Assembly (NCBI GenBank): GCA_965243305.1
Contig: CBDEUN010000003.1
Location: forward strand, 1,221,845 to 1,285,844
From: Arenicellales bacterium
GTDB lineage: Bacteria; Pseudomonadota; Gammaproteobacteria; Arenicellales; JAJDZL01
DNA: 64,000 nucleotides
Direction: 5' to 3'
Shown here: positions 43,326 through 64,000 of the stretch, one piece after another
How the letters are laid out: each line of letters begins with the position of its first letter
How positions within the stretch are numbered: the first letter of the stretch is position 1
Position numbers and translations under genes: made by a program
The notes under the pieces: model-generated
What the model was told of the DNA's origin: nothing
The model's input: the letters and a program-made list of their open reading frames with translations, nothing else
The model's database searches: none

Positions 43326-45083
43326 CCCTAATCCTCAGTTAGAGACTGCCAGCGGCGGCTAAGGCGAGATTTTCGGCACTCTGGCGGTTCGAAGCGCCAG
43401 GATTTTCCAAACCATCAAGCCACACACCGAAATCGGTGACCATTTTACCCGGCTGAACCCACTGCGAAGCGAATCTGGCGGCTCAGCAGCAAATCCGGCG
43501 CAAGCCTGTCCCTGACAGTAGACTGACTGCCATGATCTGTAGTGTAAAGCCGTTTCAGAACGAATGAGAAGTCAGGACAGGCTGCAGCGGCGGATGGCCC
43601 AAAGCGACTGTTCCAGGACAGGAAGTTTGGCCGCACTGACTTTCAGGGTCCACTGCCGCGCATGGCGAACCACCTGTCCGGCCATCGCATACAGTCGGTG
43701 ACGGAAACTGATCGCCCGCACGCCATACCACTCCTGCGGCAGTTTCATGCGCATCAGCGCAAGCAGATTGAAGGCAATCGAAGACAGAAGCAGGTACGCG
43801 ACATTGGCTTTGAACTCGCCGCACGGCAGATGCGCCGCGCTGAAGTCACTGCGAATTTCCTTGAGCCGGTTTTCCGAGCTGTCCCCTCTCTGGTTGTACC
43901 ACCATACAATCTCGCCGTCACTGAAGCGGTCCAGGTCCAGATCGGTCGCAATCGCCCGGTAGATGTACCTGCCGCTGACCGCACTTTGCACATCGACCTG
44001 GTGCAGGCCTTCATTTTTGAAAACCATCTTCAGCTGCTCAGTCCCGTCAGGCATCCCAGCGTCGGCCGGCAGCTTGTCCCGCACCCATTTTTTCTGCACC
44101 ACCAGACAGAAAGCCTCAGGCACATCTTCCATCACATGCAGCGTACGGGCCAGATACTCGCCTTCCAATACCGCACCGTCGGCATTCACAACCGCATTCC
44201 AATCCTCATCCTTAATGTCCAGTACCGTTTTCTTCACCGCACTGTCCATCTTCGCCCGAATCGCAAAACGGATGCCGTGTGCGCGGCAATCATTGATGAT
44301 GCCCGCCTGATAGGAGGCGGCATCGGCCCGGAAGCGAGTGACACCCACCCCTTCGGGCAGCGCCGCGCGGCAGCGCCGGAAAAACTCAACATTCTCAGCC
44401 CCAGGCGGCACATTGCCCTCGCGAAGCTCAGCCGCAGCCACCTGACCGGTCTCGGCAATGTGACCGAACATCGGCATGTACCCGCGATGCTTCTTATACG
44501 TCCACTTCGCGTCTTTTTTCTTCGACCGAATCGCCGATGCGTCAATGTCCAAAGTGACGCACTTTCGATCACCCAGCGTCGCTTTCATCACCGCGCGGTT
44601 GACCTGCTCGAGAACCGAGATCATCTGTCGACTGTCGCCGACTCTGTGAAGCCATCCACCCAGCGTCGTGGCACAGGGAATCGTCCCAAAACCCAACAGC
44701 TTCATCAGCGCCGGTTCACTGCGCAGGTGGCGCACATCGTCGATGCACCCCGCACCTTCGTGGAACATCAGCATGAAGGTATTGAAAATGGCGCTGTGCC
44801 GGTAGCCTCGATTGCTGCCGGGTGTGGGCATTGACGAATCAATGAGCTGTGACAGCTCAAGGCGCTTGAGCAGTTCGGCTGGCACCACCAGACCGGCTCT
44901 GGAGGTGAAATTGTGGCAGCTTGCCGCAGTGTTGTATGGTAGAATCTTCATAAGCCTTGCGAAATCTGAGAGCCGTTTCGAATTCACCCATTGGGTGAAT
45001 GCCGAATTGGGCGTTTTTTTCAATATCTCTCTGATTTTACAGGGCTTTATCATTTTCTGCAACTTTTTATTTGCGGATCAGGG
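43326..45083 (-). mobile_element. IS1380-family insertion sequence (1758 bp)
   Basis: A single DDE transposase ORF. The terminal inverted repeats are CCCTAATCCTCA (left) and CCCTGATCCGCA (right, reverse complement), a 10/12 match starting with CC. It is flanked by the 5-bp TTACT duplication. G+C is visibly above the host (38/60 at 43621-43680). Confidence 0.85.
43572..45062 (-). CDS. IS1380-family DDE transposase
   Basis: 496 aa. LDIDAS..., YMPMFGH, and the C-terminal WWYNQRGDSSENRLKEIRSDF...FKANVAYLLLSSIAFNLL are typical of IS1380 transposases. The start is TTG 45062 or ATG 45053. Confidence 0.85.
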   Translation of the reverse strand: MQKMIKPCKIREILKKTPNSAFTQWVNSKRLSDFARLMKILPYNTAASCHNFTSRAGLVVPAELLKRLELSQLIDSSMPTPGSNRGYRHSAIFNTFMLMFHEGAGCIDDVRHLRSEPALMKLLGFGTIPCATTLGGWLHRVGDSRQMISVLEQVNRAVMKATLGDRKCVTLDIDASAIRSKKKDAKWTYKKHRGYMPMFGHIAETGQVAAAELREGNVPPGAENVEFFRRCRAALPEGVGVTRFRADAASYQAGIINDCRAHGIRFAIRAKMDSAVKKTVLDIKDEDWNAVVNADGAVLEGEYLARTLHVMEDVPEAFCLVVQKKWVRDKLPADAGMPDGTEQLKMVFKNEGLHQVDVQSAVSGRYIYRAIATDLDLDRFSDGEIVWWYNQRGDSSENRLKEIRSDFSAAHLPCGEFKANVAYLLLSSIAFNLLALMRMKLPQEWYGVRAISFRHRLYAMAGQVVRHARQWTLKVSAAKLPVLEQSLWAIRRCSLS

Positions 45084-51128: not shown

Positions 51129-53285
51129 GTGTACAGCTTCACCACCTGGTCCAACAGGCAGGTTAATCCAGATCTGGGAAGTTGTTTATTCAGCTTTGTG
51201 CTGATTGCAGACACTCACGTTGACCGCGAAAACCTACCGTCGTCTTCGCCGTTTCCGACCAACTCGTTGTGCAATGGCAGAACGCGTTACTGCATCGCAG
51301 ATATTGGGGAGTTGAGTCGTGAAATGGGATCGCTTGCACCAAAATTCACTGTACATCTGGGTGATCTGACACACCCAGTTCCCTCCATGGCTGCTTATTC
51401 AACAGCTGTCGAAGACTTTCGCAAAATAATAACTGAATTGAAAATGCCGCTGTACCTGGTTCCCGGCAATCACGATGTTGGCGATAAACCGGTTGACTGG
51501 GCGCCCGCAGGTGTGGTACGCGAGCGGTTTCTGGCCGCCTGGAGCCGTAATTTTGGAAGCCATTACCAATCCTTCAGCCATGGCGGTGTGAAATTTATTC
51601 TGCTCAATGCCCAGATCATCAATTCCGGGTTGGAGTTGGAACACCAGCAGCGAACATGGCTTGAATCCACCCTCAAGACGGCTGATGGAGAACGCATCAT
51701 GCTGTTGCTGCATTATCCACCCTATATATACACAGAAGATGAAGCTGAGAATTACGACAATCTTGCGATCACTGGGCGGACGTGGCTTTTGGATTTAAGT
51801 GAAAAGTACAACGTTGAAGCCCTCTTTGCGGGTCATGTTCATCACTTTTGGTACAACCGCTACAAGTCTATGGACTGCTATCTACTGCCATCAACTTCGT
51901 TTACCCGGCAGGATTACAGTGAGATGTTTCGTGTAGCGCCAGCTGAGCAAATGGCAGACGGTCGAAATGATTCAGCTAAAGTGGGATATTTCGTGGTACT
52001 CGTCTATGAAAACGGTCATGTATGTCACTTTCGAAGCACCAAAGGCAGTGCGCTGCAGTCCGCAGAGGAAATCAGCGATTCGAGAAAATCATCGCAAGTC
52101 ATTCCCCTGCACCCGCGGGAAGCCAAAACGAACCGTGTTGGTTTTGATATGCGTCACCCCTGGGCTGAAGTTGTTGAGATAGCGCCATCGGGTGCGCTTG
52201 ATGAATTCAGTCGAAAGCGGGTCCGCAATGATTACCCTCTGTTTGCGCTGTGGCAAATGGGGACTGGACTGATGCGCATTCCGACAAGCGACCTGGAGGA
52301 CAGCCAAACGGTGGTCCGAATGCAGGCGTTGCAAGAATTGGGACATGCGTTCGTTATCACCTCTGATGGCGTACCGGATGAAAGTACGCTTGCATGCATG
52401 ATTCGATGCAAGGATCTCATCAACCGATGGGAAATTGCAATACCCATTGCGAAGATTGATGAACTGAAGGACACTTTGCGATCATTCAAATCAGAGACTC
52501 GTTTACCGATCTATTTATCTAAACTGCGCATGAAATCCGACCGTGCTAAAGACGGTGAGCCGTACTATCACCATATCAGTCATGGCTTTTCCGTTGCAGA
52601 TGAAGATGAAATCAATTCCCTGATGAAATGTAACGACCCGCGCAAGTTATTCGAAGGTGTGGTGTTTCGCATTGCACGTCCCGACAGCGTGAGCAAATCA
52701 TTGACTGAAGTCGCGGCTATTTGCGAACGATTAGGCGTGGGTGCTTCAGTGACCATGTTTATGGCGGACCCCAATCCAGCGAAACATCGGTGTGATGATC
52801 ACGACACTGCGAATCGCATTGCCGAAAGTGTGTTTTCTGCTGCGTCTTTGGGTAAAGTGGAACTGTTTGTTGACACGTTCATCGATCTCGACCGAGGGCA
52901 CAGTGTTCGCAATGGTGTCATTGACCGTTTGTGTAATCCGCGTCCCGCAATGTTTGTCGTGCAAAACCTGAACGCAATATTGAACTCAGAATGGGACGTC
53001 TCAGGTTCATTGTCGTATGGAACTTTCGACAATGGACGGTGGGTTTGCGCGAATCAGCCCGAGCGCAGTCTTGTGCTGATTGCGGCAAATGCTCCTAACC
53101 GTAGATTTGAGCTATCAATCAAAGACTGTCAACAGAAGATCGGTGGCGTCGGGCAAGTGCTAAATCTCGTCTCTGGAAAGATTGAGCCTATATCAATCAT
53201 CACTTCGGATACAGGTATTGTGCTTGAATCCAAAGAATCCACCTCGGGTCCGTTATTGATCCTCTCTCAGCGAGCTTGGAACTGA
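51129..53285 (+). CDS. Metallophosphoesterase (calcineurin-like) with ~400-aa uncharacterised C-terminal extension
   Basis: MPE motifs IADTHVD, LGDLTH, GNHD, LLHYPP, GHVHH occupy the first ~270 aa. I could not recognise the remainder. GTG start. Confidence 0.75.
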   Translation: MYSFTTWSNRQVNPDLGSCLFSFVLIADTHVDRENLPSSSPFPTNSLCNGRTRYCIADIGELSREMGSLAPKFTVHLGDLTHPVPSMAAYSTAVEDFRKIITELKMPLYLVPGNHDVGDKPVDWAPAGVVRERFLAAWSRNFGSHYQSFSHGGVKFILLNAQIINSGLELEHQQRTWLESTLKTADGERIMLLLHYPPYIYTEDEAENYDNLAITGRTWLLDLSEKYNVEALFAGHVHHFWYNRYKSMDCYLLPSTSFTRQDYSEMFRVAPAEQMADGRNDSAKVGYFVVLVYENGHVCHFRSTKGSALQSAEEISDSRKSSQVIPLHPREAKTNRVGFDMRHPWAEVVEIAPSGALDEFSRKRVRNDYPLFALWQMGTGLMRIPTSDLEDSQTVVRMQALQELGHAFVITSDGVPDESTLACMIRCKDLINRWEIAIPIAKIDELKDTLRSFKSETRLPIYLSKLRMKSDRAKDGEPYYHHISHGFSVADEDEINSLMKCNDPRKLFEGVVFRIARPDSVSKSLTEVAAICERLGVGASVTMFMADPNPAKHRCDDHDTANRIAESVFSAASLGKVELFVDTFIDLDRGHSVRNGVIDRLCNPRPAMFVVQNLNAILNSEWDVSGSLSYGTFDNGRWVCANQPERSLVLIAANAPNRRFELSIKDCQQKIGGVGQVLNLVSGKIEPISIITSDTGIVLESKESTSGPLLILSQRAWN

Positions 53286-53340: not shown

Positions 53341-54405
53341 CTATCTGTTGCGTTCTGCCATCCACTTATCTTGAATCAACTCCACGAGTTCCTTGAGTAC
53401 TTCCTTATGGTTTTCCCAATCATCCTTGTCCAAAACAACAAACCGCTCATTCCTAATATCTCCAACCCCTGGAGCATTTACAGCTCCCCTTTGATTGAAC
53501 AGGGTTTTTTGTTTTTCAAAATGATCTGAGCACAGGTGTATTGCAATCGGATAAAAGGTGACACAAATTCTGCGGTCTTCTTCGAGTCGAATTGAATGTG
53601 AACCTTGATAACCAAGATTATCCGGATTGGAATTGTCGATTTCGATTCTTGGATAGTTGTATGTGATCCCAGTTGTTCGTGTGTCAGCCCTAGCATCAGT
53701 AGAATTCAGACTTTCTCTTACTTCATTCCATAAAATTTCGAATTCTTCACCGTACTCTTGAATCTTCCTCTGCAGCCTTCTAGACATTTCCATTTGGTTT
53801 ATGCGTCCAGTCGACGTATCTTGGCGTTTAATTTCCACTTCAACCTGCCTAGCAAGAAGTACGCTTTCACCGTCTTGGAATCCGTGAAATGTCAAAAGCG
53901 AAATATCCATTTCGTTTTCTGCCAAATATTCAACCATACGCTTTGCTCGTTCGTCAACACCGAGTCCAACAAGCAACATTTTTGTTGGTCTCAATACACT
54001 GTAGTCCAGCTCTTGATTACGTAAGTTTTTGTACCAAGATTCGAAATCATCTACTTCGTCGATGGCAGACCCACTCGAGAGAAATTCAAGCAACTGATCT
54101 TCATTCCGAGAATCAATCCATGAACAGTAGTCCAATATCTGAGCCACCGCTTGCCGTGTGAGGACTCCTCGCTTCAACTCGAATACTACCAGTTTGTCTT
54201 GTCGGTTTAGTCCAAGTAAATCAAGATCGTATATACCATCAATTGTCATTTGGCGACCAATGAGTGTTAAACCTGGCACTAGCATTTCTGGGTTTTGTTC
54301 CAATAGATTCTCCAGTGATTCTTCGGAATCCATTTGGCTTGCTGGTTGAAGCTTTTCCACTGAATTTCCCATGGTTTCACATCTCCAAATTTTTATTTCA
54401 TCCAT
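53341..54405 (-). CDS. NucS/DUF91-type PD-(D/E)xK nuclease-domain protein with unknown C-terminal region
   Basis: ESLENLLEQNPEMLVPGLTLIGRQMTIDGIYDLDLLGLNRQDKLVVFELKRGVLTRQAVAQILDYCSW shows the D...ExK...QxxxY layout. ATG 54405 is preceded by GAGG. Alternative starts are TTG 54420 and ATG 54372. Confidence 0.6.
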   Translation of the reverse strand: MDEIKIWRCETMGNSVEKLQPASQMDSEESLENLLEQNPEMLVPGLTLIGRQMTIDGIYDLDLLGLNRQDKLVVFELKRGVLTRQAVAQILDYCSWIDSRNEDQLLEFLSSGSAIDEVDDFESWYKNLRNQELDYSVLRPTKMLLVGLGVDERAKRMVEYLAENEMDISLLTFHGFQDGESVLLARQVEVEIKRQDTSTGRINQMEMSRRLQRKIQEYGEEFEILWNEVRESLNSTDARADTRTTGITYNYPRIEIDNSNPDNLGYQGSHSIRLEEDRRICVTFYPIAIHLCSDHFEKQKTLFNQRGAVNAPGVGDIRNERFVVLDKDDWENHKEVLKELVELIQDKWMAERNR

Positions 54406-54674
54406 TGTGTACCTCGGCAAATGTTTATTTGTAGTTGTGGACTATTGAGAGAGTTACACTTGGTTAGCGGCCAACTCTGCATGTGAAGTTTCGTAGAACC
54501 ATTGTATTTTGGCACCTCAAACTGAAAATCGAACTTGCCCGAGTTTGATGCATTAGCCCGCTCAAACTACACAACTTTAATATTCATTTCAGTGAAATTG
54601 AACAGTACCAAAAATTAAACAGCCGATCTGATAGACAAATCAAATACAAGAAACAGTCTTCGATGATGCGGATT

Positions 54675-55442
54675 TTATAGACAGACCCCCGCATAAATGT
54701 CATACATCTCCATCTCGCCGTCAAAATAATTTGCTCGAATATCGTCTAATAACTCTTGATATTTCTCATAACCCCCTTCCTCAATCAATTCTTCGCAATG
54801 GAACGTTTTCGGCTTTAGAGATTTCCATTCTTGCTCTACACCTGAATATATCGGGATCAGCAATTTGTCTTCGATTGGAAAAAATTTTCCTGGATTGATC
54901 AGAAACAGGCATTCCGTCAGTTTTAAGGGGTAGATGAACCACATATTCAGCACTTGATTAAATGTCTCTGGGCAAATCTCAGGATTTTCAGGAGCTGCCT
55001 GTCGAAAAAGGTTCCAAAGCAAATCGTGACTTTCCCGATCAACTTTTCCACCCATCACATCTTGAAAGAGCAAAGCCCTTCGGGGATTGGGCATGAACTT
55101 TCCTGTTGTTGGACAGTCGGCCGACAAGTTGAACGTTTCATGCACGCTTTGGAAGATGTCATGCATTGAATTCGAATTTGTTTTGCTCGCAAGGAAATAA
55201 AAAAATGAAAATGGGTCATTGACTGCATACGCCATAAATTCGGCCAATCGGTCGATATACCGATCACCATATTTGGCCATTCCACCAGTATCTTCTGCCT
55301 CTGACCAATCAACTGCTTGAATGTGTTGGACCAAGAATTCTTGATCATTTTCGTTAATTTTTATTGCCAATTCCCGAAACCACGGTACCCAGCTGTCGTC
55401 CACCAGTTCCTGATTTAAACTTTGACTCTTTACTTCGTTCAT
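54675..55442 (-). CDS. Hypothetical protein resembling the uncharacterised N-terminal module of McrB-like AAA+ restriction GTPases (no ATPase domain present)
   Basis: NDPFSFFYFLASKTNSNSMHDIFQSVHETFNLSADCPTTGKFMPNPRRALLF parallels the IDPFT(F/V)..FNRG...F.l....P..F.GIP...wFF pattern, recalled from memory. The start is ATG 55442. The ORF opens at TTG 55499. Confidence 0.45.
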   Translation of the reverse strand: MNEVKSQSLNQELVDDSWVPWFRELAIKINENDQEFLVQHIQAVDWSEAEDTGGMAKYGDRYIDRLAEFMAYAVNDPFSFFYFLASKTNSNSMHDIFQSVHETFNLSADCPTTGKFMPNPRRALLFQDVMGGKVDRESHDLLWNLFRQAAPENPEICPETFNQVLNMWFIYPLKLTECLFLINPGKFFPIEDKLLIPIYSGVEQEWKSLKPKTFHCEELIEEGGYEKYQELLDDIRANYFDGEMEMYDIYAGVCL

Positions 55443-55529
55443 ATAAATGATTCCAATAGGGTGTGTCTCATATTTCTGAATGTGCGATCCGGTTTCCAAT
55501 CACTATTTTCAATTTAGAATTGAACTCGA

Positions 55530-56561
55530 TCAGTGGCAAATCTTTTCGAGCACTTGAGGATTGTTCAAGACGATCTCAAAGAGTTCACCCAAATTCATGC
55601 TTTCTGATTCCCCCGTATCCCAAGCAAATTCTCCGAAATCGTTCTCTCGAACAAATCGCGACCAATTCATGAGTCGCCCCGAATTTCTTTCCCCGTCGAT
55701 AGCTATGATCAATTCATTCTCGCTTTTCCAACACCATATTTCTCGTCCATCGGCCAATTGAATTGGATCAACTTCAGGAATTCCCTTCTTGAATCTGCTG
55801 AAAGCCCCTAGTCGGACAAATTCTGTTATTTCATCTGCAGATACATCGAGTTCATTTTGAATTTCGATCAAATCACTTTGTGACACCATTCCTTGGGAAA
55901 CACATTCGCCGTTCGCTCTATGTCCATATGGTCCGTTCCTGACTCTTTCCCCAAATATGTTTTGCCCATTTTTTTCAGCACATTCGAATTCGCTGATTGT
56001 TTTCGTTTTTAGATCAATGGTAAGTAGTGCAAGAATTTCTCCCGTTGTACTCAACAGGCTGAAGAGGCTGGATTTGTTAATTTTGACATCATTGATGCGG
56101 TCTTGAGCTTCATCAAATTTCTTTACACAATTGCCCAGACTTTTTCCGATTTGGACTAATCTGTTCACATCACGAATTTCTTCTAGTTTTAATCCACTGC
56201 TTAACGTCAAAATTTCAGGCTTAGGCATCTCAACATCTGATGAGACGTCTAGCTTTGAATTGAGATGAGTTTCGACAAATTTCTTAGTGCTTGCAACAAT
56301 TTGTCGATAGTCTTTTTCTACGTGAGAAAACGACTCAAGCACGCGGTGAGCAGCACTTGCTACATCGGTGTTTTCAGAATTGACGGACTGAATCGCATGT
56401 CGGCAGGCTTTCAGGGTATCGTACAACTCCCTGTGATTGTTGCGATAGCCGTCTTCTAGAGTTTTCTTTACTGTTTTACGAAATTTTTCCGAATTGTAAG
56501 TATCGATATCCTTGGCCAATTTATCGAGCTGGTCAAGTTGAATTTTGTATTCGTGTAGCAT
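55530..56561 (-). CDS. Hypothetical protein (helical/coiled-coil N-terminus; possible PcfJ-like core)
   Basis: 343-aa ATG-initiated ORF in low-GC DNA. LVQIGKSLGNCVKKF ... ALLTIDLKTKTISEFECAEKNGQ is reminiscent of the PcfJ-like EG..l.HCV ... Tlel ... N pattern. This similarity is weak and unverified. Confidence 0.5.
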   Translation of the reverse strand: MLHEYKIQLDQLDKLAKDIDTYNSEKFRKTVKKTLEDGYRNNHRELYDTLKACRHAIQSVNSENTDVASAAHRVLESFSHVEKDYRQIVASTKKFVETHLNSKLDVSSDVEMPKPEILTLSSGLKLEEIRDVNRLVQIGKSLGNCVKKFDEAQDRINDVKINKSSLFSLLSTTGEILALLTIDLKTKTISEFECAEKNGQNIFGERVRNGPYGHRANGECVSQGMVSQSDLIEIQNELDVSADEITEFVRLGAFSRFKKGIPEVDPIQLADGREIWCWKSENELIIAIDGERNSGRLMNWSRFVRENDFGEFAWDTGESESMNLGELFEIVLNNPQVLEKICH

Positions 56562-57206
56562 TTAGTTTTCCAAGCTAATTTGTAGTTAGTTCTATCAATA
56601 GTTCAGTTTGATTCCATTCAATCTGTTTCAGCACTTCCCATACGACTCCTAGCCACTTTGTCCTCTGACAACAGATACAGATCACATCTAAAACGGATTT
56701 CCGAAGAACCAATTGATCATCAATTTTGTCTTCGCAAGGCGTTATTGGTTGATCAGCTTTCCTTGGCTGCTCAGCCAAACAGGAGCGGATTCAAAGAAGG
56801 AATATCAATTTTCCCGAGATCCGGATTTGGCAATATCTGTTCCGATTCAGATCGCACAAAGAAATGTACGACAAGAAGTTCGAAAGTTCAAGACTAAATT
56901 GATGGATTAAGTATTTAATCCGTCATATATTGTCGTATATGATATTTTATAGGAAGCAGTGGCGAATTAGGGCTGGTTAAAGTCTCAGCCCCAATTGAAA
57001 ATCTGTGGTTCAGATTCATCCTGAGTCGGCTACGATTGATGACGGTTCATCCAATCCAACCTCGGATGTGGGTATTGCAAATCTGTTGAAAACGTTACAA
57101 GCAGGTTCCGATTGTTGATTTGTCGAAATTCCCGAAGATACGATTTCAATCTCGGGCTGATTGAATCGACAGCAAATTACTCACTACCTGAACATCTACT
57201 GATAGC

Positions 57207-58430
57207 CTAATTGACAGAAATTACGTTGTAATCGGGGCCGTAGGGAAACCCCGTAATGTTCTCTGCACCTGTTTCTGTGACCACCAGTATGTCATGTTCC
57301 CGATAACCCCCGGCACCAGGCATACCAGCCGGGATAGTCAGCATCGGCTCCATGGAAACGACCATTCCGGCAGTCAGTTCCGTATCAATGTCTTCACGAA
57401 ATTCCAGCCCTGCTTCTCTACCGTAATAGTGTGACAAGATTCCAAATGAGTGCCCGTATCCAAAAGTTCGATACTGGAGAAGACCCAGATTTTCGAAGTA
57501 CGCATTGAGCGTTGCACAGATGTCAGAACATCTCACGCCAGGGCGAATTTTTGAGATTCCAAGTTCATGAGCTCCCACATTGGCATGCCATATTTTCAGT
57601 GACGCCGAATCTACTTGGTCGACGAACATGGTTCGTTCCAACGCAGTGTAGTAACCTGAGATCATTGGGAAGGTATTCATGCTCAGAATATCACCACACT
57701 TCAATTTACGGGTTGTTACAGGATTGTGAGCTCCATCAGTATTGATTCCTGACTGAAACCATACCCACGAATCCCTGATTTCACTGTTGGGGTAGTGTTC
57801 GGCTATAGCCAACTCCATTGCATCCCGACCAGCCATTGCAATGTCTATCTCCCTTGCACCTAGACGTACTGCATCGCGTATAGCTTCACCTCCAATATCG
57901 GCAATATGGGCACCACCCTTGATCAACTTAATCTCCTCCGCAGATTTGACCATTCGAGCGTTGGTTATTTCCGCGCTCATGTCCTTGACTAGAATGGGAC
58001 TCACCAGATCATCCAATTTCTTGCGTCCAACCAGCGTCAGGTGATCGCCTTCAATGCCAATGCAGGCAGTATCACCCAAAGTGTGTTTGACAGCACGCCA
58101 AAAATTGTCCCGCTTCCAATCAGTATAGATCAGATTTTCTCCATAACTGTGCCGCCAGGGCTGTCCTGTGTCGATTGCTGCTGAAATAGTGATGCAGTCG
58201 TGCTCGGTAACCACGCATGCATAAGGCCTGCCGAAACTGCAGTACAAGAAACCAGAATAGTAGGCAACAGTTTGCATGGATGTCAGCAGGACAGCTGACA
58301 CGCCTTCAATCGACATGAGCCGCCGCAACGCGAACAGTCTGGTTTTGTATTCGTTATCGGTAAACGGGAGGGGTGCCTTAGACCCGTTGTGAAACTCGAA
58401 GAATTCGGGCCTGGTAGATTGGATAGTCAT
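57207..58430 (-). CDS. Creatinase (creatine amidinohydrolase)
   Basis: Long near-identical stretches to Pseudomonas putida creatinase as I remember it: YYSGFLYCSFGRPYACVVTE, GQPWRH, WFQSGINTDGAHNPVTTRK, GYYTALERTMFVD, YRTFGYGHSFGILSHYYGREAGLEFREDIDT, GAGGYREHDILVV. ATG 58430 is preceded by GAGGTG. The ORF opens at TTG 58436. Confidence 0.9.
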   Translation of the reverse strand: MTIQSTRPEFFEFHNGSKAPLPFTDNEYKTRLFALRRLMSIEGVSAVLLTSMQTVAYYSGFLYCSFGRPYACVVTEHDCITISAAIDTGQPWRHSYGENLIYTDWKRDNFWRAVKHTLGDTACIGIEGDHLTLVGRKKLDDLVSPILVKDMSAEITNARMVKSAEEIKLIKGGAHIADIGGEAIRDAVRLGAREIDIAMAGRDAMELAIAEHYPNSEIRDSWVWFQSGINTDGAHNPVTTRKLKCGDILSMNTFPMISGYYTALERTMFVDQVDSASLKIWHANVGAHELGISKIRPGVRCSDICATLNAYFENLGLLQYRTFGYGHSFGILSHYYGREAGLEFREDIDTELTAGMVVSMEPMLTIPAGMPGAGGYREHDILVVTETGAENITGFPYGPDYNVISVN

Positions 58431-58826
58431 TGTCAATCACCTCGAAAGTTCCGGGTGATCGCAAATGTGACAACCCGGTATTTCCATCCGGGCGTACAGG
58501 ATGAATCGACAACCGTTTCCAGCGTGCTAGAAACGGACTTAAATGTACTGTAAATCGCGACGCCATCGCTACAGGTATCAGCAATTGTACAAAATTCTTT
58601 CGACCTTCAGCGAACACATGTGATACCCAACTGGCTTTCCGCTCGTGTGACTGGTAGCCAAAGGATACAAATTTGCCATCTTTTGCAGGTAGCTTGATAT
58701 GCGGCAGTATGCACCTGTGAATGTTGCTGAACAAAATTAGCCTATTTTCTTCATTACCTGAAACCAGCTGCATATTGTAGATATAATTCCCAAATTACTA
58801 AGTAAATAAGGAATAAGATTACTAAA

Positions 58827-59975
58827 ATGTATGAGAGAACCTGTAGTATTTCGCTACCTCCCGGTCAGTCAGCTTTCCTATGGGGTCCACGGCAAACCGG
58901 CAAATCTACACTTCTCAAACATCAGTTCCCGAACAGCGTCAGTTTTGATCTGCTCGATGCCAGCACAATGCTGCGATTCCTGTCTGCACCCAATACTCTT
59001 GGTGAAGAACTCCGTGCATCCGGTACCATTGCTAAAAATGAACCGATTGTCATTGATGAAGTTCAGAAAGTCCCATCGCTGCTCGACGAAGTTCACAGGC
59101 TGATTGAGTCGGAAGCCATGAGTTTCATACTGTGCGGGTCTAGTGCACGGAAACTTCGACGCGGCGGCGTAAATCTGCTCGGAGGTAGAGCTTGGAAATT
59201 CAACTTACACCCTCTAACCTGGAGCGAGGTACCAGGGTTTGATTTGTTGACAGCGATGAAGACTGGAATGTTACCGGGACTGTACGCGAAGAAGTTCGCG
59301 AGGCGTTCACTTAATGCATATGTTGAGGATTATTTGACCCAGGAGATTTTCAATGAGGCTTTAGTGAGAAATACCGCAAGTTTTTCCCGTTTCTTCGACT
59401 CATTGGCTTTCTGCCACGCGGAGATGCTAAATTTTTCCTCAATTGCTCGCGACTGTGCTATTGAAGCAAAAACTGCTCGTGCGTATTTTGACATTCTGGT
59501 TGATACGCTAACAGGTTACCTAATCTATCCATATGCAAGAAAAGGCAAGCGTCGAACAATATCGAGTACTCCAAAGTTTTACCTGTTCGATATTGGCATT
59601 GCGAATCACATCTTGGGTAATGTGATCTCAAATAAACATGGTGCCAATTTTGGAAAAAGTTTTGAACACTTCATTTTTCTTGAACTTGTTGCAGCCAACA
59701 GTTATCAGGAATGGGATACAAAAATTGAATATTGGCGAACAAGTAGTGGTCTTGAAGTAGATTTCGTACTGTTTAACGGCTCTGTAGCCATAGAAGTCAA
59801 GAGTCGCTTAAGAACAGGTGACTTACGCGCAATAAAGGCATTCAAGGATGAGTTTCAACCACAAAAAATCATCGTCGTTACATCGGAGCCCTTCAACCGA
59901 ATCGTGGATGGAATCGAAGTTCAGAACTATGAATATTTTCTAGACCAGCTAAACCAGGGTAAATTGCTTTTCTGA
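58827..59975 (+). CDS. AAA-family ATPase with DUF4143 C-terminal domain
   Basis: Walker A GPRQTGKSTLLK and Walker B VIDEVQKVP, with a C-terminal region typical of AAA_14/DUF4143 proteins. 382 aa. Confidence 0.85.
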   Translation: MYERTCSISLPPGQSAFLWGPRQTGKSTLLKHQFPNSVSFDLLDASTMLRFLSAPNTLGEELRASGTIAKNEPIVIDEVQKVPSLLDEVHRLIESEAMSFILCGSSARKLRRGGVNLLGGRAWKFNLHPLTWSEVPGFDLLTAMKTGMLPGLYAKKFARRSLNAYVEDYLTQEIFNEALVRNTASFSRFFDSLAFCHAEMLNFSSIARDCAIEAKTARAYFDILVDTLTGYLIYPYARKGKRRTISSTPKFYLFDIGIANHILGNVISNKHGANFGKSFEHFIFLELVAANSYQEWDTKIEYWRTSSGLEVDFVLFNGSVAIEVKSRLRTGDLRAIKAFKDEFQPQKIIVVTSEPFNRIVDGIEVQNYEYFLDQLNQGKLLF

Positions 59976-60146
59976 TGAATTAGTGCGAATGCGTAAAACT
60001 CAGGCCTCTTGATATACCCACCAAATATGGAGCATCACAATTGAGGTGAATGGTTAACGAGGCTCTGAGCATATACCAGTATTGGAAACTTCTCGGGATG
60101 AGTTACCTCTTGTTTAAATGTATCTCTTAGGATACAATACACGCAA

Positions 60147-60515
60147 ATGGATATTTATAAAACTGAAGAGTACGAAAATTGGTTTCAGAAACTTCGAGAC
60201 AGAGAAGCAAAATCCCGAATCAATGCTCGAATTAGGCGGTTAAGTTTAGGTAACCCGGGAGACAATCGGAATATTGGTAGAGATGTAAGGGAACTACGAT
60301 TTGAATATGGGCCAGGATACCGAGTGTATTTTGTTCACAGCGGGGAAGATTCTGTGGTGCTACTTCACGGAGGCACCAAACAGCGCCAGCAAAGGGACAT
60401 CGAAAAAGCTAAAGATCTAGCACAGAAAATTGTGGGAGAGCACCAACAAAGGAAAATCGAAGAATCCAAAGATCTAGCACAGATTACTGGAGGAGAGCAT
60501 AAACATGAAGAGTGA
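60147..60515 (+). CDS. Addiction-module killer protein (RelE/ParE superfamily, Gp49/COG3657 type) with duplicated C-terminal tail
   Basis: WFQKLRDREAKSRINARIRRLSLGNPGDNRNIGRDVRELRFEYGPGYRVYFVHSGEDSVVLLHGGTKQRQQRDIEKAK is the canonical family pattern. The tail repeats IEKAKDLAQKIVGEH / IEESKDLAQITGGEH. Confidence 0.85.
   Translation: MDIYKTEEYENWFQKLRDREAKSRINARIRRLSLGNPGDNRNIGRDVRELRFEYGPGYRVYFVHSGEDSVVLLHGGTKQRQQRDIEKAKDLAQKIVGEHQQRKIEESKDLAQITGGEHKHEE
60399..60512 (+). repeat. Imperfect 57-bp tandem duplication (2 units) spanning the toxin 3' end and the antitoxin ribosome-binding region
   Basis: Unit 1 (60399-60455) and unit 2 (60456-60512) match at about 40/57 positions by hand alignment. 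This includes an identical 15-mer, AAAGATCTAGCACAG. Unit 2 carries GGAGGAG and the antitoxin ATG. Confidence 0.7.
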
Positions 60516-61035
60516 TTCTAAAATTCAACGAAAGACAATGAATGTGAAGATTAGTCAATGGGACGCTGCGGACTATTTAGAAACTCCAGAGGACATCGCT
60601 CATTATCTGGAAGCTGCGTTTGAAGACGGTGATTCTAGTTTGATTGCAGCAGCGATTGGTGATGTTGCCAGATCTAAAGGAATGACTGTAATCGCCGCCG
60701 AAACGGGATTGGGTAGAGAAAGTTTATACAAAGCGCTGTCGATGGATGGAAACCCCGGATTCGCATATGTACTTAGCGTTTTGAAAGCCTTTGGACTACG
60801 GTTGTGTCCCGCAGTAGCTACTGTTGAAGCAAATCAAAGTCGTAAATTGAGTGGTTCTAGAAATTTGGGTTATAGCGCCAGCGGTACTATGCGAAATTCA
60901 AACGTAAGTAAAACTTTCAAATTCGAGGCGGGCTCCGGACGTTCGCACCACAAGACTACAAGAGGTTCTAGTGGTGACGTAGACTCAAACATCTCTAAAT
61001 CTAAGCGCAAATCCCGCGACAAAAAATCTACATAA
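60505..61035 (+). CDS. Addiction-module antidote protein (HTH, COG3636 type) with ~70-aa Ser/Lys/Arg-rich tail
   Basis: DAADYLETPEDIAHYLEAAFEDGDSSLIAAAIGDVARSKGMTVIAAETGLGRESLYKALSMDGNPGFAYVLSVLKAFGLRL is the canonical family pattern. GGAGGAG lies 9 nt before the ATG. It overlaps the toxin stop by 11 nt. Confidence 0.85.
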   Translation: MKSDSKIQRKTMNVKISQWDAADYLETPEDIAHYLEAAFEDGDSSLIAAAIGDVARSKGMTVIAAETGLGRESLYKALSMDGNPGFAYVLSVLKAFGLRLCPAVATVEANQSRKLSGSRNLGYSASGTMRNSNVSKTFKFEAGSGRSHHKTTRGSSGDVDSNISKSKRKSRDKKST

Positions 61036-61296
61036 TCAGCTTAGGGTTAAACGCTAAGGCAACCATCAATTCGATGACCCCATTCTAGTGAAATTAGTAG
61101 ATGCCATACAGAAGTTTTCTTACAACTAAACATAGATGGAATCCTTATCGCAACAAATTTTGGAGAATACCTCAACAAAGTGTCCCGGGTGCTACTTCGC
61201 CGCAAATAAGCAACAGTCAATACCACTCGTTCACTTCAATTCGCTTTCCGGATTAACACACTATCTGAGCGCAATTGTCTCCATATCAGGACTAGA

Positions 61297-62205
61297 TCAA
61301 TGAACTCCCCTGAGGATTGACTTCATCAGAGATTCAGCATGGCTGCGATAGCTTGATCCAAATATATTCAGGTGATTGAGAATGTGATACAGGTTGTAAA
61401 CCGATTTGCGCAGCTGCCAGCCGTAGGGCAACGGACTAAGTTCCTGATATTTATCAAAAAAGCTGGTGGGAGGTGAACCAAATAGTTGCATCATGGCCAG
61501 ATCGGTTTCAGCATCTCCGTGATACACCGCAGGATCAATGATGAACGGCTCTCCGCTGTTGTCGAAACCGTAGTTTCCACTCCACAAATCTCCATGAAGC
61601 AGGCTTGGTAGAGGGTGGTGATCTTTAAGAACGGTGCTGACCGCATCGGGCATTTTTTCACCGAGTAGTCGAAAATTACCCGAATACCCGTTTCGCCAAG
61701 CCATTTCCAATTGAAATATCAGGCGATAATTGAGAAAGAATTCAGACCAGTCATCACATTGACTGTTTACTTGGTGCGATCGACCGATATAGTTATCGCG
61801 ATGCCAGCCAAACCTGCTGCCATGATGCGAGTGTAGTGCGAAAAGAGAAGACGCAAGTCTCAAATAATCGGATCTTCTTCCAGTCAGTTCAATGTATTCT
61901 GAGACCAGTACTGTCGTGGTGTCGAAGGTTTCAACAATGATCGGTTTCGGTACTCGAATCGTATCTGAGTTCGCTAGTGCAGAAAGTCCGTCGTATTCAG
62001 CTTTCAGGACATCCGGGTTTGAGCCGAGCTTCAAAAAGTATCGGTGTTCACCACAATTAATGCTAGCGGTCGGTCCGCTGGTACTGTGCGACAGCGGGGT
62101 AAATTTCGATATGGTACGACCCAGACTGTCTGAAATGCTGATCAAAAGAGGATCGTCTAAACCAGAAATTTGCACGGCACTATCAGAATTATCTGCGAAG
62201 GTCAT
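61297..62205 (-). CDS. Fructosamine/ketosamine-3-kinase family protein
   Basis: LLHGDLWSGNYGF, IIDPAVYHGDAETDLAMMQLFG, YNLYHILNHLNIFGSSY. I chose ATG 62205 because the longer ORF (to 62262) would overlap the divergent priA start. Confidence 0.8.
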   Translation of the reverse strand: MTFADNSDSAVQISGLDDPLLISISDSLGRTISKFTPLSHSTSGPTASINCGEHRYFLKLGSNPDVLKAEYDGLSALANSDTIRVPKPIIVETFDTTTVLVSEYIELTGRRSDYLRLASSLFALHSHHGSRFGWHRDNYIGRSHQVNSQCDDWSEFFLNYRLIFQLEMAWRNGYSGNFRLLGEKMPDAVSTVLKDHHPLPSLLHGDLWSGNYGFDNSGEPFIIDPAVYHGDAETDLAMMQLFGSPPTSFFDKYQELSPLPYGWQLRKSVYNLYHILNHLNIFGSSYRSHAESLMKSILRGVH

Positions 62206-62251
62206 TCGATTTGGTGAACCGCCAATAGTATAGGAAAGAACAAGTAACCCT

Positions 62252-64000
62252 ATGAGAGGCATCGTTCGAGTTGCAGTCCCAATCCGGCATTGGAGCCTGT
62301 TTGACTACACGTGTGAGCCGATCGCTTCGATAGGCTGTCGCGTGATCGTGCCCTTCGGCCATCGGCGCATGTTGGGAATTGTCGTCGATCACGCTGAAAC
62401 ATCTGAATATCCGGAAGACAAGCTGCGCTGCGTCAGTTCAATCCTGGATGAGGAGCCTGTCCTATCAAGTACGCTGATTCACTCACTGCAGTGGGTTGCC
62501 CAGTACTATCAACAGCCAATTGGAGAAGTACTGTCTACCGCTTTACCAAAAGCCATTCGGGTTGGAAAACCCTTGATACCGAAGTTTGACATTGTTTACC
62601 GATTGACTGATTTCGGGCAACAATTCGATGCCAGTGAACTCAATCGAGCGAAAGTGCAAAAGAAAGCCTTCGAGCTCTTGAAATCCGAAGCACGTGCTTT
62701 GGGTCCTGAAACACTTCGGCATGTAGGGTCGACTTGGAAAAACGCACTCAAGGTTCTGGAAACAAAGGGTTTGGTAACAGCGGAGCCAAGGTACACTAAT
62801 TTTTCAGTTAATGGACAGAATCTGATAGATGATCTGACTGACTCACAGTTGAAAGCTCGTGAGCAGATTCTGCAAGCTTTGGATTCATATCGGTGTTTTC
62901 TGATCCAGGGAGTAACCGGAAGTGGAAAAACCGAAGTGTATCTACATGTGATTGCCAAAGTACTAGAAAGTGGCGGTCAGGCTATGATGCTGGTTCCCGA
63001 AATTGGTTTGTCTCCGCAACTTGAACAGCGTGTTCAGTCAGCGCTTGGCGTACCGGTAGCATCGTTTCATTCTGGACTGACGGACACGCAGCGTCATAAA
63101 ACTTGGTGGATGGCGCTTAGCGGAAAGGCCAAGGTCGTAATTGGCACGCGTTCAGTAGTTTTTCTGCCATTCAAAAAGTTGAAAATCATTGTGATTGACG
63201 AGGAACATGACACTTCGTTCAAACAGCAGGAACGGGTGCACTATCACGCGCGTTCGGTTGCATTGCATCGGGCCTATAGTGAAAAATTCCCGATTGTTTT
63301 TGGAACTGCAACACCATCTCTCGAAACAGTTCACGCAGCTCGCTCGGGTCGGGCTGAAATTCTTATGCTGCCCGAACGGGCAACACGAATCGAAATGCCG
63401 ACGGTTAAACTGATCGATCTCAGTCGGGAACGCGCGTCGGACAGTCTATCCAATAGTCTCCTGTCGCAAATCAAGAAGCGGATTAAATCAGGAGAACAAA
63501 GCCTGATATTCATTAACCGGCGTGGTTTTGCACCAGTGGTTATCTGTCCATCCTGTCGTTGGACAGCAAAATGCTCTGATTGTGATGCACGATTAATCTT
63601 TCATCAGTCGGATCATCAATTGCATTGCCACCTGTGCTTTAAGAAGTTTCCGATGATGAGACAGTGCCCGCAGTGTCTGTCGGAAAATGTTCACTTATTC
63701 GGCACCGGTACACAACGTGTCGAACAGGAGTTGCAACGGGAAATTCCTGGAGCCAGAGTCATCAGAATTGATCGAGATACAACACGATCCTACACCGAGT
63801 TCGAGCGCAGATTAGCGCGTATACAAAAAGGAGAGGTAGACGTTCTCGTGGGGACACAAATGCTGTCTAAGGGACACCACTTTCCGAACGTTACACTGGT
63901 TGGAATATTGAATGTTGATCAGGGATTCTACAGCATGGATTTTCGGGCAATGGAGCATCTGGTGCAGCAGGTGCTCCAGGTTGCTGGTCGCTCTGGCCGC
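62252..64000 (+). CDS. priA: Primosomal protein N' (replication restart helicase PriA), 3' end outside window
   Basis: Hand translation from ATG 62252 gives MRGIVRVAVPIRHWSLFDYTCEPIASIGCRVIVPFGHRRMLGIVV. Further motifs are Walker A GVTGSGKTEVYL, DEEH box VIDEEHDTSFKQQ, and the zinc-finger region CPSCRWTAKCSDCDARLIFH...CHLC...CPQC. It is in frame to the window end. Confidence 0.9.
   Translation, partial: MRGIVRVAVPIRHWSLFDYTCEPIASIGCRVIVPFGHRRMLGIVVDHAETSEYPEDKLRCVSSILDEEPVLSSTLIHSLQWVAQYYQQPIGEVLSTALPKAIRVGKPLIPKFDIVYRLTDFGQQFDASELNRAKVQKKAFELLKSEARALGPETLRHVGSTWKNALKVLETKGLVTAEPRYTNFSVNGQNLIDDLTDSQLKAREQILQALDSYRCFLIQGVTGSGKTEVYLHVIAKVLESGGQAMMLVPEIGLSPQLEQRVQSALGVPVASFHSGLTDTQRHKTWWMALSGKAKVVIGTRSVVFLPFKKLKIIVIDEEHDTSFKQQERVHYHARSVALHRAYSEKFPIVFGTATPSLETVHAARSGRAEILMLPERATRIEMPTVKLIDLSRERASDSLSNSLLSQIKKRIKSGEQSLIFINRRGFAPVVICPSCRWTAKCSDCDARLIFHQSDHQLHCHLCFKKFPMMRQCPQCLSENVHLFGTGTQRVEQELQREIPGARVIRIDRDTTRSYTEFERRLARIQKGEVDVLVGTQMLSKGHHFPNVTLVGILNVDQGFYSMDFRAMEHLVQQVLQVAGRSGR

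What the first reader, a model, noticed from the sequence alone, without database searches (positions are those of the whole stretch)
53341..56778. Low-GC three-gene cassette (PcfJ-like/coiled-coil protein, stand-alone McrB-N-terminal-like domain protein, NucS-type PD-(D/E)xK nuclease): candidate undescribed defence or mobile-element module
Three co-oriented minus-strand ORFs (55530-56561, 54675-55442, 53341-54405) lie between a metallophosphoesterase gene and a creatinase gene. The DNA is visibly AT-richer than its surroundings: my hand count is 22/60 G+C at 55501-55560, against 26/60 and 33/60 in two flanking metabolic-gene lines. None of the three proteins looks metabolic.

- The last protein opens with ESLENLLEQNPEMLVPGLTLIGRQMTIDGIYDLDLLGLNRQDKLVVFELKRGVLTRQAVAQILDYCSW. 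This is the D...ExK...Q..Y arrangement of NucS/DUF91-type PD-(D/E)xK nucleases. About 230 aa that I cannot place follow it.
- The middle protein carries NDPFSFFYFLASK...FNLSADCPTTGKFMPNP..ALLF. I recognise this as the conserved but uncharacterised module at the N-terminus of many McrB-like AAA+ GTPases of type IV restriction systems. Here it has no ATPase attached.
- The first protein has a helical N-terminus of about 110 aa and a core (IGKSLGNCVKKF ... LLTIDLKTKTISEFECAEKNGQ) faintly reminiscent of PcfJ-like proteins from conjugative elements.

The combination of a nuclease, a restriction-associated sensor-like domain and an unknown partner in an AT-rich insert matches no named defence system I know.
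Basis: partly seen in the sequence, partly recalled or inferred. Interest (0 to 1): 0.8.

Follow-up and report, generated by a model that had tools for sequence, protein, structure and literature searches.

The report
Two separate defence-like modules, not three-gene system
The AT-rich insert is real, but it is a variable chromosomal slot that holds two independent units: an already catalogued but untested candidate defence nuclease, and a conserved gene pair built around a free-standing copy of the front domain of McrB-type restriction enzymes plus a partner protein of unknown function.

Summary
Three intact minus-strand ORFs (A 55530-56561, B 54675-55442, C 53341-54405) lie in the lowest-GC stretch of the window (0.41 against 0.48), between a creatinase gene and a metallophosphoesterase gene.

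The reading as one three-gene system does not hold. In seven related genomes the same slot holds A+B+C (2), A+B only (2), C only (2), or A+B-mcrB-mcrC-C (1).

C is a full-length member of PADLOC's untested single-gene candidate family PDC-S11. It has a NucS-like PD-(D/E)xK domain with invariant D, E and K, and about 1,900 homologues.

B is Pfam DUF8425.

A has almost no relatives, and the PcfJ resemblance is not supported. However, its core (residues about 100-343) is fused directly behind DUF8425 in a paralogue, P0254. A and B always occur together and are under purifying selection (dN/dS 0.2-0.5), even in genomes with no mcrBC next to them.

Best reading: this is a defence-island slot holding PDC-S11 plus a lineage-restricted A-B pair that derives from type IV restriction and lacks a GTPase. 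The biochemical function of A-B is unknown. Interest is moderate.

The parts
55530..56561 (-). Gene A, 343 aa. It has a helical N-terminal region of about 95-100 aa and a conserved core (about residues 100-343) with no known family. It is the partner of B.
   Evidence: ORF. Only 5 clusters of homologues were found among 5.8 billion proteins. No Pfam, NCBIfam, PADLOC, PHROG or PDB match. The core is 36% identical (E 8e-45) to residues 369-631 of P0254, where it follows DUF8425. dN/dS is 0.18-0.35. The AlphaFold model is unusable (pLDDT 45.6).
54675..55442 (-). Gene B, 255 aa, a free-standing DUF8425 (PF28527) domain. This is the N-terminal module of McrB-like type IV restriction proteins. Here it has no ATPase, it lacks the roughly 100-aa extension that follows DUF8425 in the long proteins, and the family's near-invariant Asp is replaced.
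   Evidence: Precomputed Pfam label PF28527/DUF8425. The family profile finds 1,297 representative proteins; 84 of the 145 newly listed top hits are at least 600 aa long, with the domain at the N-terminus. Of 10 long proteins scanned, 8 carry AAA_5. The model is all-alpha, pLDDT 81.5, pTM 0.83. The Asp of the 'P-x-D' motif (D in 128 of 149 aligned family proteins) is E, K or Q in all B orthologues. dN/dS is 0.19-0.50.
53341..54405 (-). Gene C, 354 aa, a PDC-S11 family protein. It has an N-terminal NucS/DUF91-like PD-(D/E)xK nuclease domain (about residues 25-185) and a conserved C-terminal region of unknown fold (about residues 190-354). It is a separate module from A-B.
   Evidence: PADLOC PDLC04916 5e-34. 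Pfam NucS_C. Profile against PDB NucS 2vld 3e-11, covering profile positions 24-117 only. 1,891 homologues, full length. D62, E76 and K78 are invariant. It occurs without A-B in L003 and L012. NCBI names it 'DUF91 domain-containing protein'.
54667..57171 (.). A 2,505-bp block present in the window but absent from L003. It holds the epimerase relic, the region upstream of A, gene A and gene B, and it defines the A-B module as one discrete indel.
   Evidence: blastn of the window against L003: homology stops at 57172 (35 bp after the creatinase stop) and resumes at 54666 (9 bp after the stop of B).
57033..57167 (-). Relic of the 3' end of an NAD-dependent epimerase gene. The gene is intact between creatinase and A' in the outgroup genome L008.
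   Evidence: tblastn of the L008 epimerase, E 2e-12. blastn 72% identity to L008 9398-9532. Pfam Epimerase on L008 8672-9538.
56575..56778 (-). 67-codon ORF upstream of A that is not a gene. This is probably leader or promoter DNA of A.
   Evidence: Stops and frameshifts in the homologous DNA of L001, L002, L007 and L010. No family hit.
54406..54674 (.). 269-bp spacer between B and C. This is the position where mcrB and mcrC lie in the outgroup genome L008.
   Evidence: Sequence read. L008 gene order. No mcrB or mcrC remnant anywhere in the window (tblastn best E 0.16).
57207..58436 (-). Creatinase/M24 gene, the conserved left border of the variable slot.
   Evidence: Pfam. 91-94% identical in relatives and 85.5% in L008.
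51129..53285 (+). Metallophosphoesterase gene, the conserved right border of the variable slot.
   Evidence: Pfam. 88% identical in relatives and 82.6% in L008.

Best explanation
The segment is a variable, AT-rich 'defence-island' slot in the chromosome of an Arenicellales-like gammaproteobacterium, between the creatinase and metallophosphoesterase genes. It holds two units that are gained and lost independently.

(1) Gene C is a member of the widespread single-gene family PDC-S11. It has a NucS-like PD-(D/E)xK endonuclease domain with an intact catalytic D/E/K triad, joined to a conserved C-terminal domain. The inference is that the C-terminal domain senses or regulates and the nuclease cuts invading DNA.

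(2) Genes A and B form a two-gene unit.
- Shown: B is a free-standing copy of DUF8425, the N-terminal module of a large group of McrB-like GTPases of McrBC-type (type IV, modification-dependent) restriction systems.
- Shown: the core of A is a domain that, in a paralogue (P0254), is fused directly behind DUF8425 in the place the GTPase normally occupies.
- Inferred: A and B therefore work as a split two-domain protein. By its position in McrB proteins, B is taken to be the nucleic-acid-recognition part. A is taken to be the output part (effector or adaptor), with its extra N-terminal helices docking it to B.
- Shown: in the outgroup genome the pair sits directly upstream of a complete mcrB-mcrC operon whose McrB carries its own divergent DUF8425. 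In the window's clade mcrBC is absent, yet A and B stay intact and constrained.
- Inferred: the pair has a function of its own. That function is most likely restriction- or defence-related. Its chemistry is unknown.
For: Modularity:
- Slot contents are window ABC, L002 ABC, L010 ABC, L001 AB without C, L007 AB without C, L003 C only, L012 C only, and L008 epimerase-A'-B'-McrB(AAA_5)-McrC-C'.
- The indel breakpoints are clean.

Gene C:
- PDC-S11 at 5e-34.
- NucS_C domain and PDB NucS match.
- Invariant D62/E76/K78.
- 1,891 homologues against 5 for A.
- C is 42% identical to L008's copy, while A and B are 65-66% identical.

Gene B:
- The DUF8425 profile finds 1,297 representatives, mostly 650-900 aa with the domain at the N-terminus.
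- 8 of 10 long proteins carry AAA_5, one carries a DEAD helicase, and one has DUF8425-EVE-AAA_5.
- Separately encoded DUF8425 proteins in L004 and L006 are followed by AAA_5+McrB_lid and McrC genes.
- On Deinococcus radiodurans plasmid MP1 the domain lies in a 'McrB family protein' followed by a 'McrC family protein'.

A-B link:
- A and B are adjacent in 6 of 6 genomes, with a conserved gap of about 85 bp.
- The fusion protein P0254 matches the A profile at E 6e-48 and by BLASTP at 8e-45.
- P0254 lies on the same 3.54-Mb chromosome as A'/B' but elsewhere on it.
- dN/dS is 0.20-0.35 for A and 0.24-0.50 for B among the genomes that have no mcrBC next to the pair.
- The dS of A and B (0.11-0.26) overlaps that of creatinase (0.18-0.30), so they are inherited with the chromosome.
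- The N-terminus of L008 McrB matches a DUF8425 profile (21.4 bits, conditional E 2.4e-6; hhalign E 1.5e-4).
Against: - No activity is shown for any of the three proteins. PDC-S11 is an untested candidate.
- A has no recognisable catalytic motif, and its model failed.
- B has lost the family's near-invariant Asp (E/K/Q) and the extension that follows DUF8425 in the long proteins. It may therefore not do what the domain does in McrB.
- dN/dS of B within the mcrBC-less clade (up to 0.50) is higher than against the outgroup (about 0.2), which could mean some relaxation of constraint.
- All A-B genomes are close relatives, so their co-occurrence is largely one inherited event. The fusion is the only independent evidence.
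- An mcrBC elsewhere in the window's genome cannot be excluded from a 64-kb window.
- The ancestral state (mcrBC lost here, or gained in L008) is not resolved.
Confidence: 0.7

Rival explanations
1. One reading: A, B and C are one three-component defence system, with a sensor-like B, a nuclease C and an unknown partner A.
For: The three genes are co-oriented and adjacent, and share low GC, in the window, L002 and L010. All three families are also present in the same slot in the distant genome L008.
Against: - C occurs alone in L003 and L012, and A-B occur without C in L001 and L007.
- In L008 the mcrB and mcrC genes separate B' from C'.
- The C family has about 1,900 members against 5 clusters for A.
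- C has diverged to 42% identity where A and B are at 65%.
- A 269-bp spacer separates B and C, against 87 bp between A and B.
- PADLOC models C's family as a single-gene candidate.
Confidence: 0.08
2. A and B are non-functional leftovers of a four-gene A-B-mcrB-mcrC operon, decaying after mcrBC was deleted.
For: - The L008 arrangement has A'-B' directly upstream of mcrB-mcrC.
- The slot shows other decay: an epimerase relic and a frameshifted C in L002.
- B has lost a near-invariant Asp.
- dN/dS of B is somewhat higher within the mcrBC-less clade.
Against: - Both ORFs are intact in all six genomes (including the outgroup L008).
- dN/dS is 0.2-0.5, well below 1, over dS of about 0.11-0.26.
- The Asp is also lost in L008's B' (Q), where mcrBC is present, so that change predates any loss.
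- The fused paralogue P0254 has no GTPase, which shows that DUF8425 plus the A domain exists as a unit without McrB.
Confidence: 0.1
3. A-B is an accessory or regulatory unit of an McrBC system: an extra specificity subunit, or a decoy or modulator of the McrB DUF8425 domain. It acts in trans with an mcrBC encoded elsewhere in the genome.
For: - Adjacency to mcrB-mcrC in L008, whose McrB carries a paralogous DUF8425.
- B lacks the conserved Asp, as a binding-only or competing variant might.
- From general knowledge, E. coli makes a short McrB form that modulates McrBC, so separately expressed parts of McrB acting as modulators have a precedent.
Against: - No mcrB or mcrC is detectable in the 64-kb window.
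- There is a 298-bp gap between B' and mcrB in L008, so they may not share an operon.
- Other DUF8425-McrBC loci (L004, L006, D. radiodurans MP1) have no A-like gene.
Confidence: 0.12

Closest known systems
McrBC type IV (modification-dependent) restriction systems: McrB (N-terminal specificity domain + AAA+ GTPase) with the McrC nuclease
   Same: B is homologous to DUF8425, the N-terminal domain of a large set of McrB-like AAA_5 proteins that are followed by McrC genes. In the outgroup genome the A-B pair lies directly upstream of mcrB-mcrC.
   Different: - No GTPase and no McrC are present in the window.
- B is a separate 255-aa protein without the extension that follows DUF8425 in the long proteins, and without the near-invariant Asp.
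- Its partner is A, an unrelated domain with no similarity to McrC.
- DUF8425 is not the E. coli McrB N-terminal domain (DUF3578/ADAM): B gave no Pfam hit to it.
PADLOC PDC-S11, a single-gene 'phage defence candidate' (Payne et al., bioRxiv 10.1101/2024.01.29.577857)
   Same: C matches five PDC-S11 models, the best at 5e-34. It has the same length class (about 355 aa), behaves as a stand-alone gene and lies among defence-type genes.
   Different: The HMM match covers only the N-terminal half (profile positions 4-195 of 358). The C-terminal half of this clade is divergent from the PADLOC models, although it is conserved among C's own 1,891 homologues. The family has no experimental validation.
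NucS/EndoMS mismatch endonuclease (PDB 2vld, 5gke)
   Same: The PD-(D/E)xK catalytic domain with the D...ExK...Q..Y signature.
   Different: The nuclease domain is at the N-terminus of C, there is no NucS N-terminal DNA-binding domain, and a different 170-aa C-terminal domain follows. The NCBIfam NucS equivalog scores 37 bits against a cut-off of 216. C is not a NucS orthologue.
Single-chain modification-dependent restriction enzymes (reader domain fused to an effector, such as the MspJI or PvuRts1I families); comparison from general knowledge
   Same: The fused paralogue P0254 has a restriction-type N-terminal module (DUF8425 + extension) followed by a non-NTPase C-terminal domain (the A core). 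The window's A-B would be the split form.
   Different: No nuclease motif or fold could be recognised in the A core. That DUF8425 reads modified DNA is inferred from its position only.

Membership tests
PADLOC PDC-S11 | Significant match to the PDC-S11 profile HMMs | tested here: met
   PDLC04916 E 5.1e-34 (residues 8-206), PDLC04915 3.9e-20, and three further PDC-S11 models. L008's C' also matches, at 5.7e-39.
PADLOC PDC-S11 | Functions or occurs as a single gene | tested here: met
   C is the only gene between creatinase and metallophosphoesterase in L003 and L012.
PADLOC PDC-S11 | Demonstrated anti-phage activity | not testable with these tools
   PDC systems are described as 145 untested candidates. 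One listed 2026 preprint that mentions PDC-S11 could not be opened.
NucS/EndoMS | C-terminal-type PD-(D/E)xK catalytic domain with conserved D, E, K | tested here: met
   Pfam NucS_C 25.2 bits (cut-off 24). Profile against 2vld 3.3e-11. D62/E76/K78 invariant in 38 sequences.
NucS/EndoMS | NucS N-terminal DNA-binding/dimerisation domain and full-length equivalog score | tested here: not met
   No NucS_N hit. NCBIfam PRK04247 scores 37.4 bits against a cut-off of 216, and the match covers residues 26-110 only.
McrB (McrBC type IV restriction) | N-terminal module shared with McrB-like proteins (DUF8425 type) | tested here: met
McrB (McrBC type IV restriction) | AAA+ (AAA_5) GTPase domain | tested here: not met
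   B is 255 aa with no AAA hit. tblastn of L008 McrB against the whole window gives best E 0.31.
McrB (McrBC type IV restriction) | Adjacent McrC (DUF2357/PF10117 + PD-(D/E)xK) partner | tested here: not met
   No McrC in the window (tblastn best E 0.16). A shows no similarity to an McrC alignment. McrC is present only in the outgroup locus L008.
PcfJ-like (PF14284) | Significant sequence or profile similarity to PcfJ | tested here: not met
   No Pfam hit for A or its central segment at E up to 10. hhalign of the A family against pCF10 PcfJ gives probability 0.3%, E 0.22; BLASTP E 11. The motif is not conserved in P0254.
HhH-GPD DNA glycosylase fold (for B) | Structural or profile similarity | tested here: inconclusive
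   Foldseek of the B model against PDB: ranks 1-6 are all HhH-GPD glycosylases, but the best is E 0.094, probability 0.77, TM 0.31-0.40.
Integrative mobile element | Integrase/transposase, tRNA target, flanking direct repeats, recent transfer | tested here: not met
   No tRNA. Only short chance-level repeats. No recombinase among the ORFs. The dS of A and B matches that of the flanking genes. No plasmid or phage homologues of A.

The most novel reading that the evidence does not exclude
The A-B pair and its fused paralogue P0254 are a previously undescribed derivative of type IV restriction that has neither a GTPase nor McrC. The DUF8425 module pairs with a new output domain (the A core) to form an autonomous defence unit, split into two genes here.
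Probability: 0.25. Interest if true: 0.55.

Novelty: new variant of a known kind. Interest (0 to 1): 0.4.

Why it matters
If the A-B pair is active on its own, the specificity modules of McrBC-type restriction enzymes can be re-used with partners other than the GTPase/McrC motor-nuclease. That would give a handle on two uncharacterised domains: DUF8425, which has about 1,300 representative proteins, and the A core.

The locus also gives a clean natural 'knock-in/knock-out' series (ABC, AB, C, AB+McrBC+C) in closely related genomes for testing PDC-S11, a catalogued but untested defence candidate.

Set against that, the A family is confined to a handful of uncultured Arenicellales-like genomes and no function is shown. 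The immediate impact is therefore modest.

Tried and rejected
- **PcfJ relationship of A:** rejected. No Pfam hit for A. hhalign against pCF10 PcfJ gives probability 0.3%.
- **Structure of A:** AlphaFold with 5 sequences gave pLDDT 45.6, so the model was not used for fold search.
- **A compared with other families:** no similarity to McrC, the C family or DUF8425 profiles.
- **Further A relatives:** none in JGI metagenome contigs or viral contigs. No tblastn hits in plasmids or phages.
- **Fold of B:** nothing significant in PDB or BFVD. The HhH-GPD glycosylase lead is below threshold and is not backed by the sequence profile.
- **Extension after DUF8425 in long proteins:** I guessed it was PUA/EVE-like, but found no Pfam or PDB match.
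- **mcrB/mcrC remnants in the window:** none.
- **Mobile-element hallmarks:** none.
- **67-codon ORF at 56575-56778:** not conserved.
- **Genomic context of the fusion protein P0254:** could not be obtained.
- **Preprint that mentions PDC-S11 six times:** could not be opened.

Full report
**1. The observation**

Proteins of identical sequence and length are on record from an NCBI gammaproteobacterial MAG contig of 2.34 Mb.

The flanking genes are a calcineurin-like metallophosphoesterase (51129-53285) and a creatinase/M24 peptidase (57207-58436). G+C is 0.409 over the finding against 0.483 for the window.

The 67-codon ORF at the upper end of the finding (56575-56778) is broken by stops or frameshifts in four orthologous loci, so it is not a gene.

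**2. Gene C**

- C matches Pfam NucS_C just above the gathering threshold (25.2 against 24 bits). A profile of 38 homologues hits the NucS/EndoMS crystal structures at 3e-11, but only over positions 24-117.
- C is not a NucS orthologue. The nuclease domain is N-terminal, there is no NucS N-domain, and the NCBIfam equivalog scores 37 bits against a cut-off of 216.
C hits five models of PDC-S11, the best at 5e-34.
- The family is large (1,891 homologues at E<=1e-3) and conserved over its full length. The C-terminal region of about 170 aa has no Pfam or PDB match.

**3. Gene B**

- B has no hit in the local Pfam, NCBIfam, PADLOC, PHROG or PDB libraries. Its homologues carry the precomputed label PF28527 = DUF8425.
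- A profile of 24 homologues found 1,297 representative proteins. Of the 145 newly listed top hits, 84 are at least 600 aa long, with the domain at the N-terminus.
- Of 10 long proteins scanned, 8 carry a C-terminal AAA_5 domain and one carries a DEAD-box helicase. Another has DUF8425-EVE-AAA_5.
- Where DUF8425 is a separate gene in other genomes (L004, L006), the next two genes are AAA_5+McrB_lid and McrC.
- On the Deinococcus radiodurans MP1 plasmid the domain lies at the start of an annotated 'McrB family protein' that is followed by a 'McrC family protein'.
- The AlphaFold model of B is confident (pLDDT 81.5, pTM 0.83) and all-alpha, but it has no significant structural neighbour. The six best PDB hits are all HhH-GPD DNA glycosylases, though at E>=0.09 and TM 0.3-0.4, and a profile comparison with E. 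coli Nth gives nothing. I treat that as a lead only.
- The B clade differs from the rest of the family in three ways. It has a 13-aa insertion. It lacks the roughly 100-aa extension that follows DUF8425 in the long proteins. It has replaced the near-invariant Asp of the 'P-x-D' motif (D in 128 of 149 aligned family proteins) with E, K or Q.

**4. Gene A**

- A has only five clusters of homologues among 5.8 billion proteins, and all come from the same group of uncultured gammaproteobacteria. It has no family or structure match, and its AlphaFold model is unusable.
- The PcfJ resemblance is not supported. There is no Pfam hit. The 'NCV' motif is not kept in the one distant homologue.
- The informative result came from searching the A-family profile against the DUF8425 hits. 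P0254 (639 aa) has DUF8425 plus the extension at residues 14-335, and then at residues 351-632 a region that matches A residues 83-342 (E 6e-48; BLASTP 36% identity over 263 aa, E 8e-45).
- P0254 is encoded on the same 3.54-Mb Arenicellales chromosome as the more distant A'/B' pair, but outside that locus.
- So there is a natural fusion in which the A core takes the position that the McrB GTPase normally occupies behind DUF8425.

**5. Comparative genomics of the slot**

The same chromosomal position (creatinase | ... | metallophosphoesterase-DctMQP) was recovered from seven other genomes or contigs.

| Locus | Contents of the slot |
|---|---|
| window | A-B-C |
| L002 | A-B-C (C in two ORF pieces) |
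| L010 | A-B-C |
| L001 | A-B, then a 124-aa ORF and a DUF6745 protein; two GmrSD genes further on; no C |
| L007 | A-B, then unrelated genes; no C |
| L003 | C only |
| L012 | C only |
| L008 (Arenicellales MAG OZ246969.1) | epimerase - A' (65%) - B' (66%) - 580-aa AAA_5 protein - McrC - C' (42%, also PDC-S11) |

- DNA alignment gives clean breakpoints. Relative to L003 the window has an extra 2,505 bp (54667-57171). This block starts 35 bp after the creatinase stop and ends 9 bp after the stop of B. In L001, C is missing.
- The window keeps a relic of the 3' end of the epimerase gene (57033-57167). This shows that an L008-like arrangement is ancestral at least on that side.
- No trace of mcrB or mcrC is left in the window.
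- A and B are together in 6 of 6 genomes. C comes and goes independently.
- The L008 McrB-like protein has its own divergent DUF8425-like N-terminus (hhalign E 1.5e-4; enlarged HMM 21.4 bits, conditional E 2.4e-6). It keeps the Asp that B has lost. B' is therefore a paralogous free copy, not a split-off piece of that McrB.

**6. Selection and origin**

| Gene | dN/dS (Nei-Gojobori), close relatives | dN/dS against L008 |
|---|---|---|
| A | 0.20-0.35 (the four mcrBC-less genomes compared: window, L001, L002, L007) | 0.18-0.20 |
| B | 0.24-0.50 (the same four genomes) | 0.19-0.24 |
| C | 0.30-0.60 | dS saturated |
| creatinase | 0.12-0.19 | 0.06-0.07 |
| metallophosphoesterase | 0.16-0.21 | 0.18-0.20 |

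- The dS of A and B (0.11-0.26) overlaps that of creatinase (0.18-0.30). The island has therefore been inherited vertically with its flanks within this clade.
- A and B are constrained even where no mcrBC is next to them.
- The island genes are AT-richer than their flanks in both lineages. In L008 the flanks are 0.53-0.55, A'/B'/McrBC are 0.47-0.49 and C' is 0.405. This is typical of horizontally acquired defence-island DNA.
- There is no integrase, tRNA or flanking repeat, and A, B and C have no phage homologues. A discrete mobile element is not supported.

**7. Interpretation**

Shown:
- The finding comprises two separable units in a variable slot.
- C belongs to a catalogued but untested single-gene defence-candidate family and has an intact nuclease triad.
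- B is the McrB-type DUF8425 module standing alone.
- A and B are an evolutionarily cohesive pair, linked by a natural fusion.

Inferred:
- A-B works as a split two-domain protein.
- B provides nucleic-acid recognition. This rests on the position of DUF8425 in McrB proteins, whose N-terminal domains are the specificity modules (PMC11090510).
- A provides the output, and its extra N-terminal helical region of about 95-100 aa docks it to B.
- The function is restriction- or defence-related.

Unknown:
- The chemistry of the A core.
- Whether B still binds what the McrB-linked domain binds, given the lost Asp and extension.
- Whether an mcrBC elsewhere in the genome is needed.

Rivals:
- The three-gene system is largely refuted by the presence/absence data.
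- Decaying remnants are disfavoured by intact ORFs and dN/dS well below 1.
- A trans-acting accessory of McrBC remains open.

**8. Novelty and score**

C is a new member of a known candidate family. B is a member of a Pfam DUF within the McrBC world. The A-B pairing, and the fused form without a GTPase, is not in PADLOC, and no paper in the searched library mentions DUF8425. I file it as a new variant of a known kind.

The pair is confined to a few uncultured genomes and has no demonstrated activity, so interest is moderate (0.4). The most novel reading still open is an autonomous derivative of type IV restriction without GTPase or McrC. I give that about 25% probability.

Noticed in passing
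window 58437-61300: There is a second AT-rich variable slot (G+C 0.43) on the other side of the creatinase gene. It holds an AAA_14+DUF4143 ATPase (58827-59975, PADLOC PDC-S01 at 1e-47) and an HI1420-type antitoxin-like gene (60505-61035), before fructosamine kinase (61297-62262). Relatives carry different cargo here: a Gp49/HI1420 toxin-antitoxin pair in L001, HI1420-type genes only in L003 and L012, and the same ATPase in L010.
   Followed up: partly
window 57033-57167 (-): A relic of the 3' end of an NAD-dependent epimerase gene lies here. The gene is intact at this position in the outgroup genome L008 (8672-9538). This is evidence of deletion history in the slot.
   Followed up: yes
L001 11903-21032: In a close relative, C and most of the metallophosphoesterase gene are replaced by a larger island. 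It holds a 124-aa ORF, a DUF6745 protein, two tandem GmrSD_N (type IV restriction) genes, an AAA ATPase and a HipA kinase. A duplicated copy of the 3' end of B marks the junction.
   Followed up: partly
L002 6268-7380: The C orthologue is split into two ORF pieces (residues 1-276 and 276-338). This is either a frameshift pseudogene or an indel error in a long-read assembly.
   Followed up: no
L013 (Deinococcus radiodurans MP1) 5001-5504: The DUF8425 match starts about 300 bp upstream of the annotated start of the 'McrB family protein' (5307) and overlaps the end of a 'hypothetical protein'. The McrB start is probably annotated too far downstream, or the gene is frameshifted.
   Followed up: no
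window 13301-18430 (-): A 1,709-aa protein fuses a DEAD/Helicase_C (SF2) helicase to a UvrD-type (SF1) helicase. This is an unusual double-helicase architecture.
   Followed up: no
window 43572-45062 (-): A DDE transposase (DDE_Tnp_1_4), that is an insertion sequence, lies about 8 kb from the finding. A 390-aa ORF overlaps it on the opposite strand.
   Followed up: no
window 37885-39915 (+): A 676-aa protein with a DUF2779 domain. It was not examined further.
   Followed up: no
proteins P0249 and P0221 (DUF8425 family): DUF8425 is also found fused to a DEAD-box/Helicase_C helicase (P0249, 1,312 aa), and in the order DUF8425-EVE-AAA_5 (P0221, 974 aa). The module is therefore combined with several motors and with a known modified-base reader.
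   Followed up: partly
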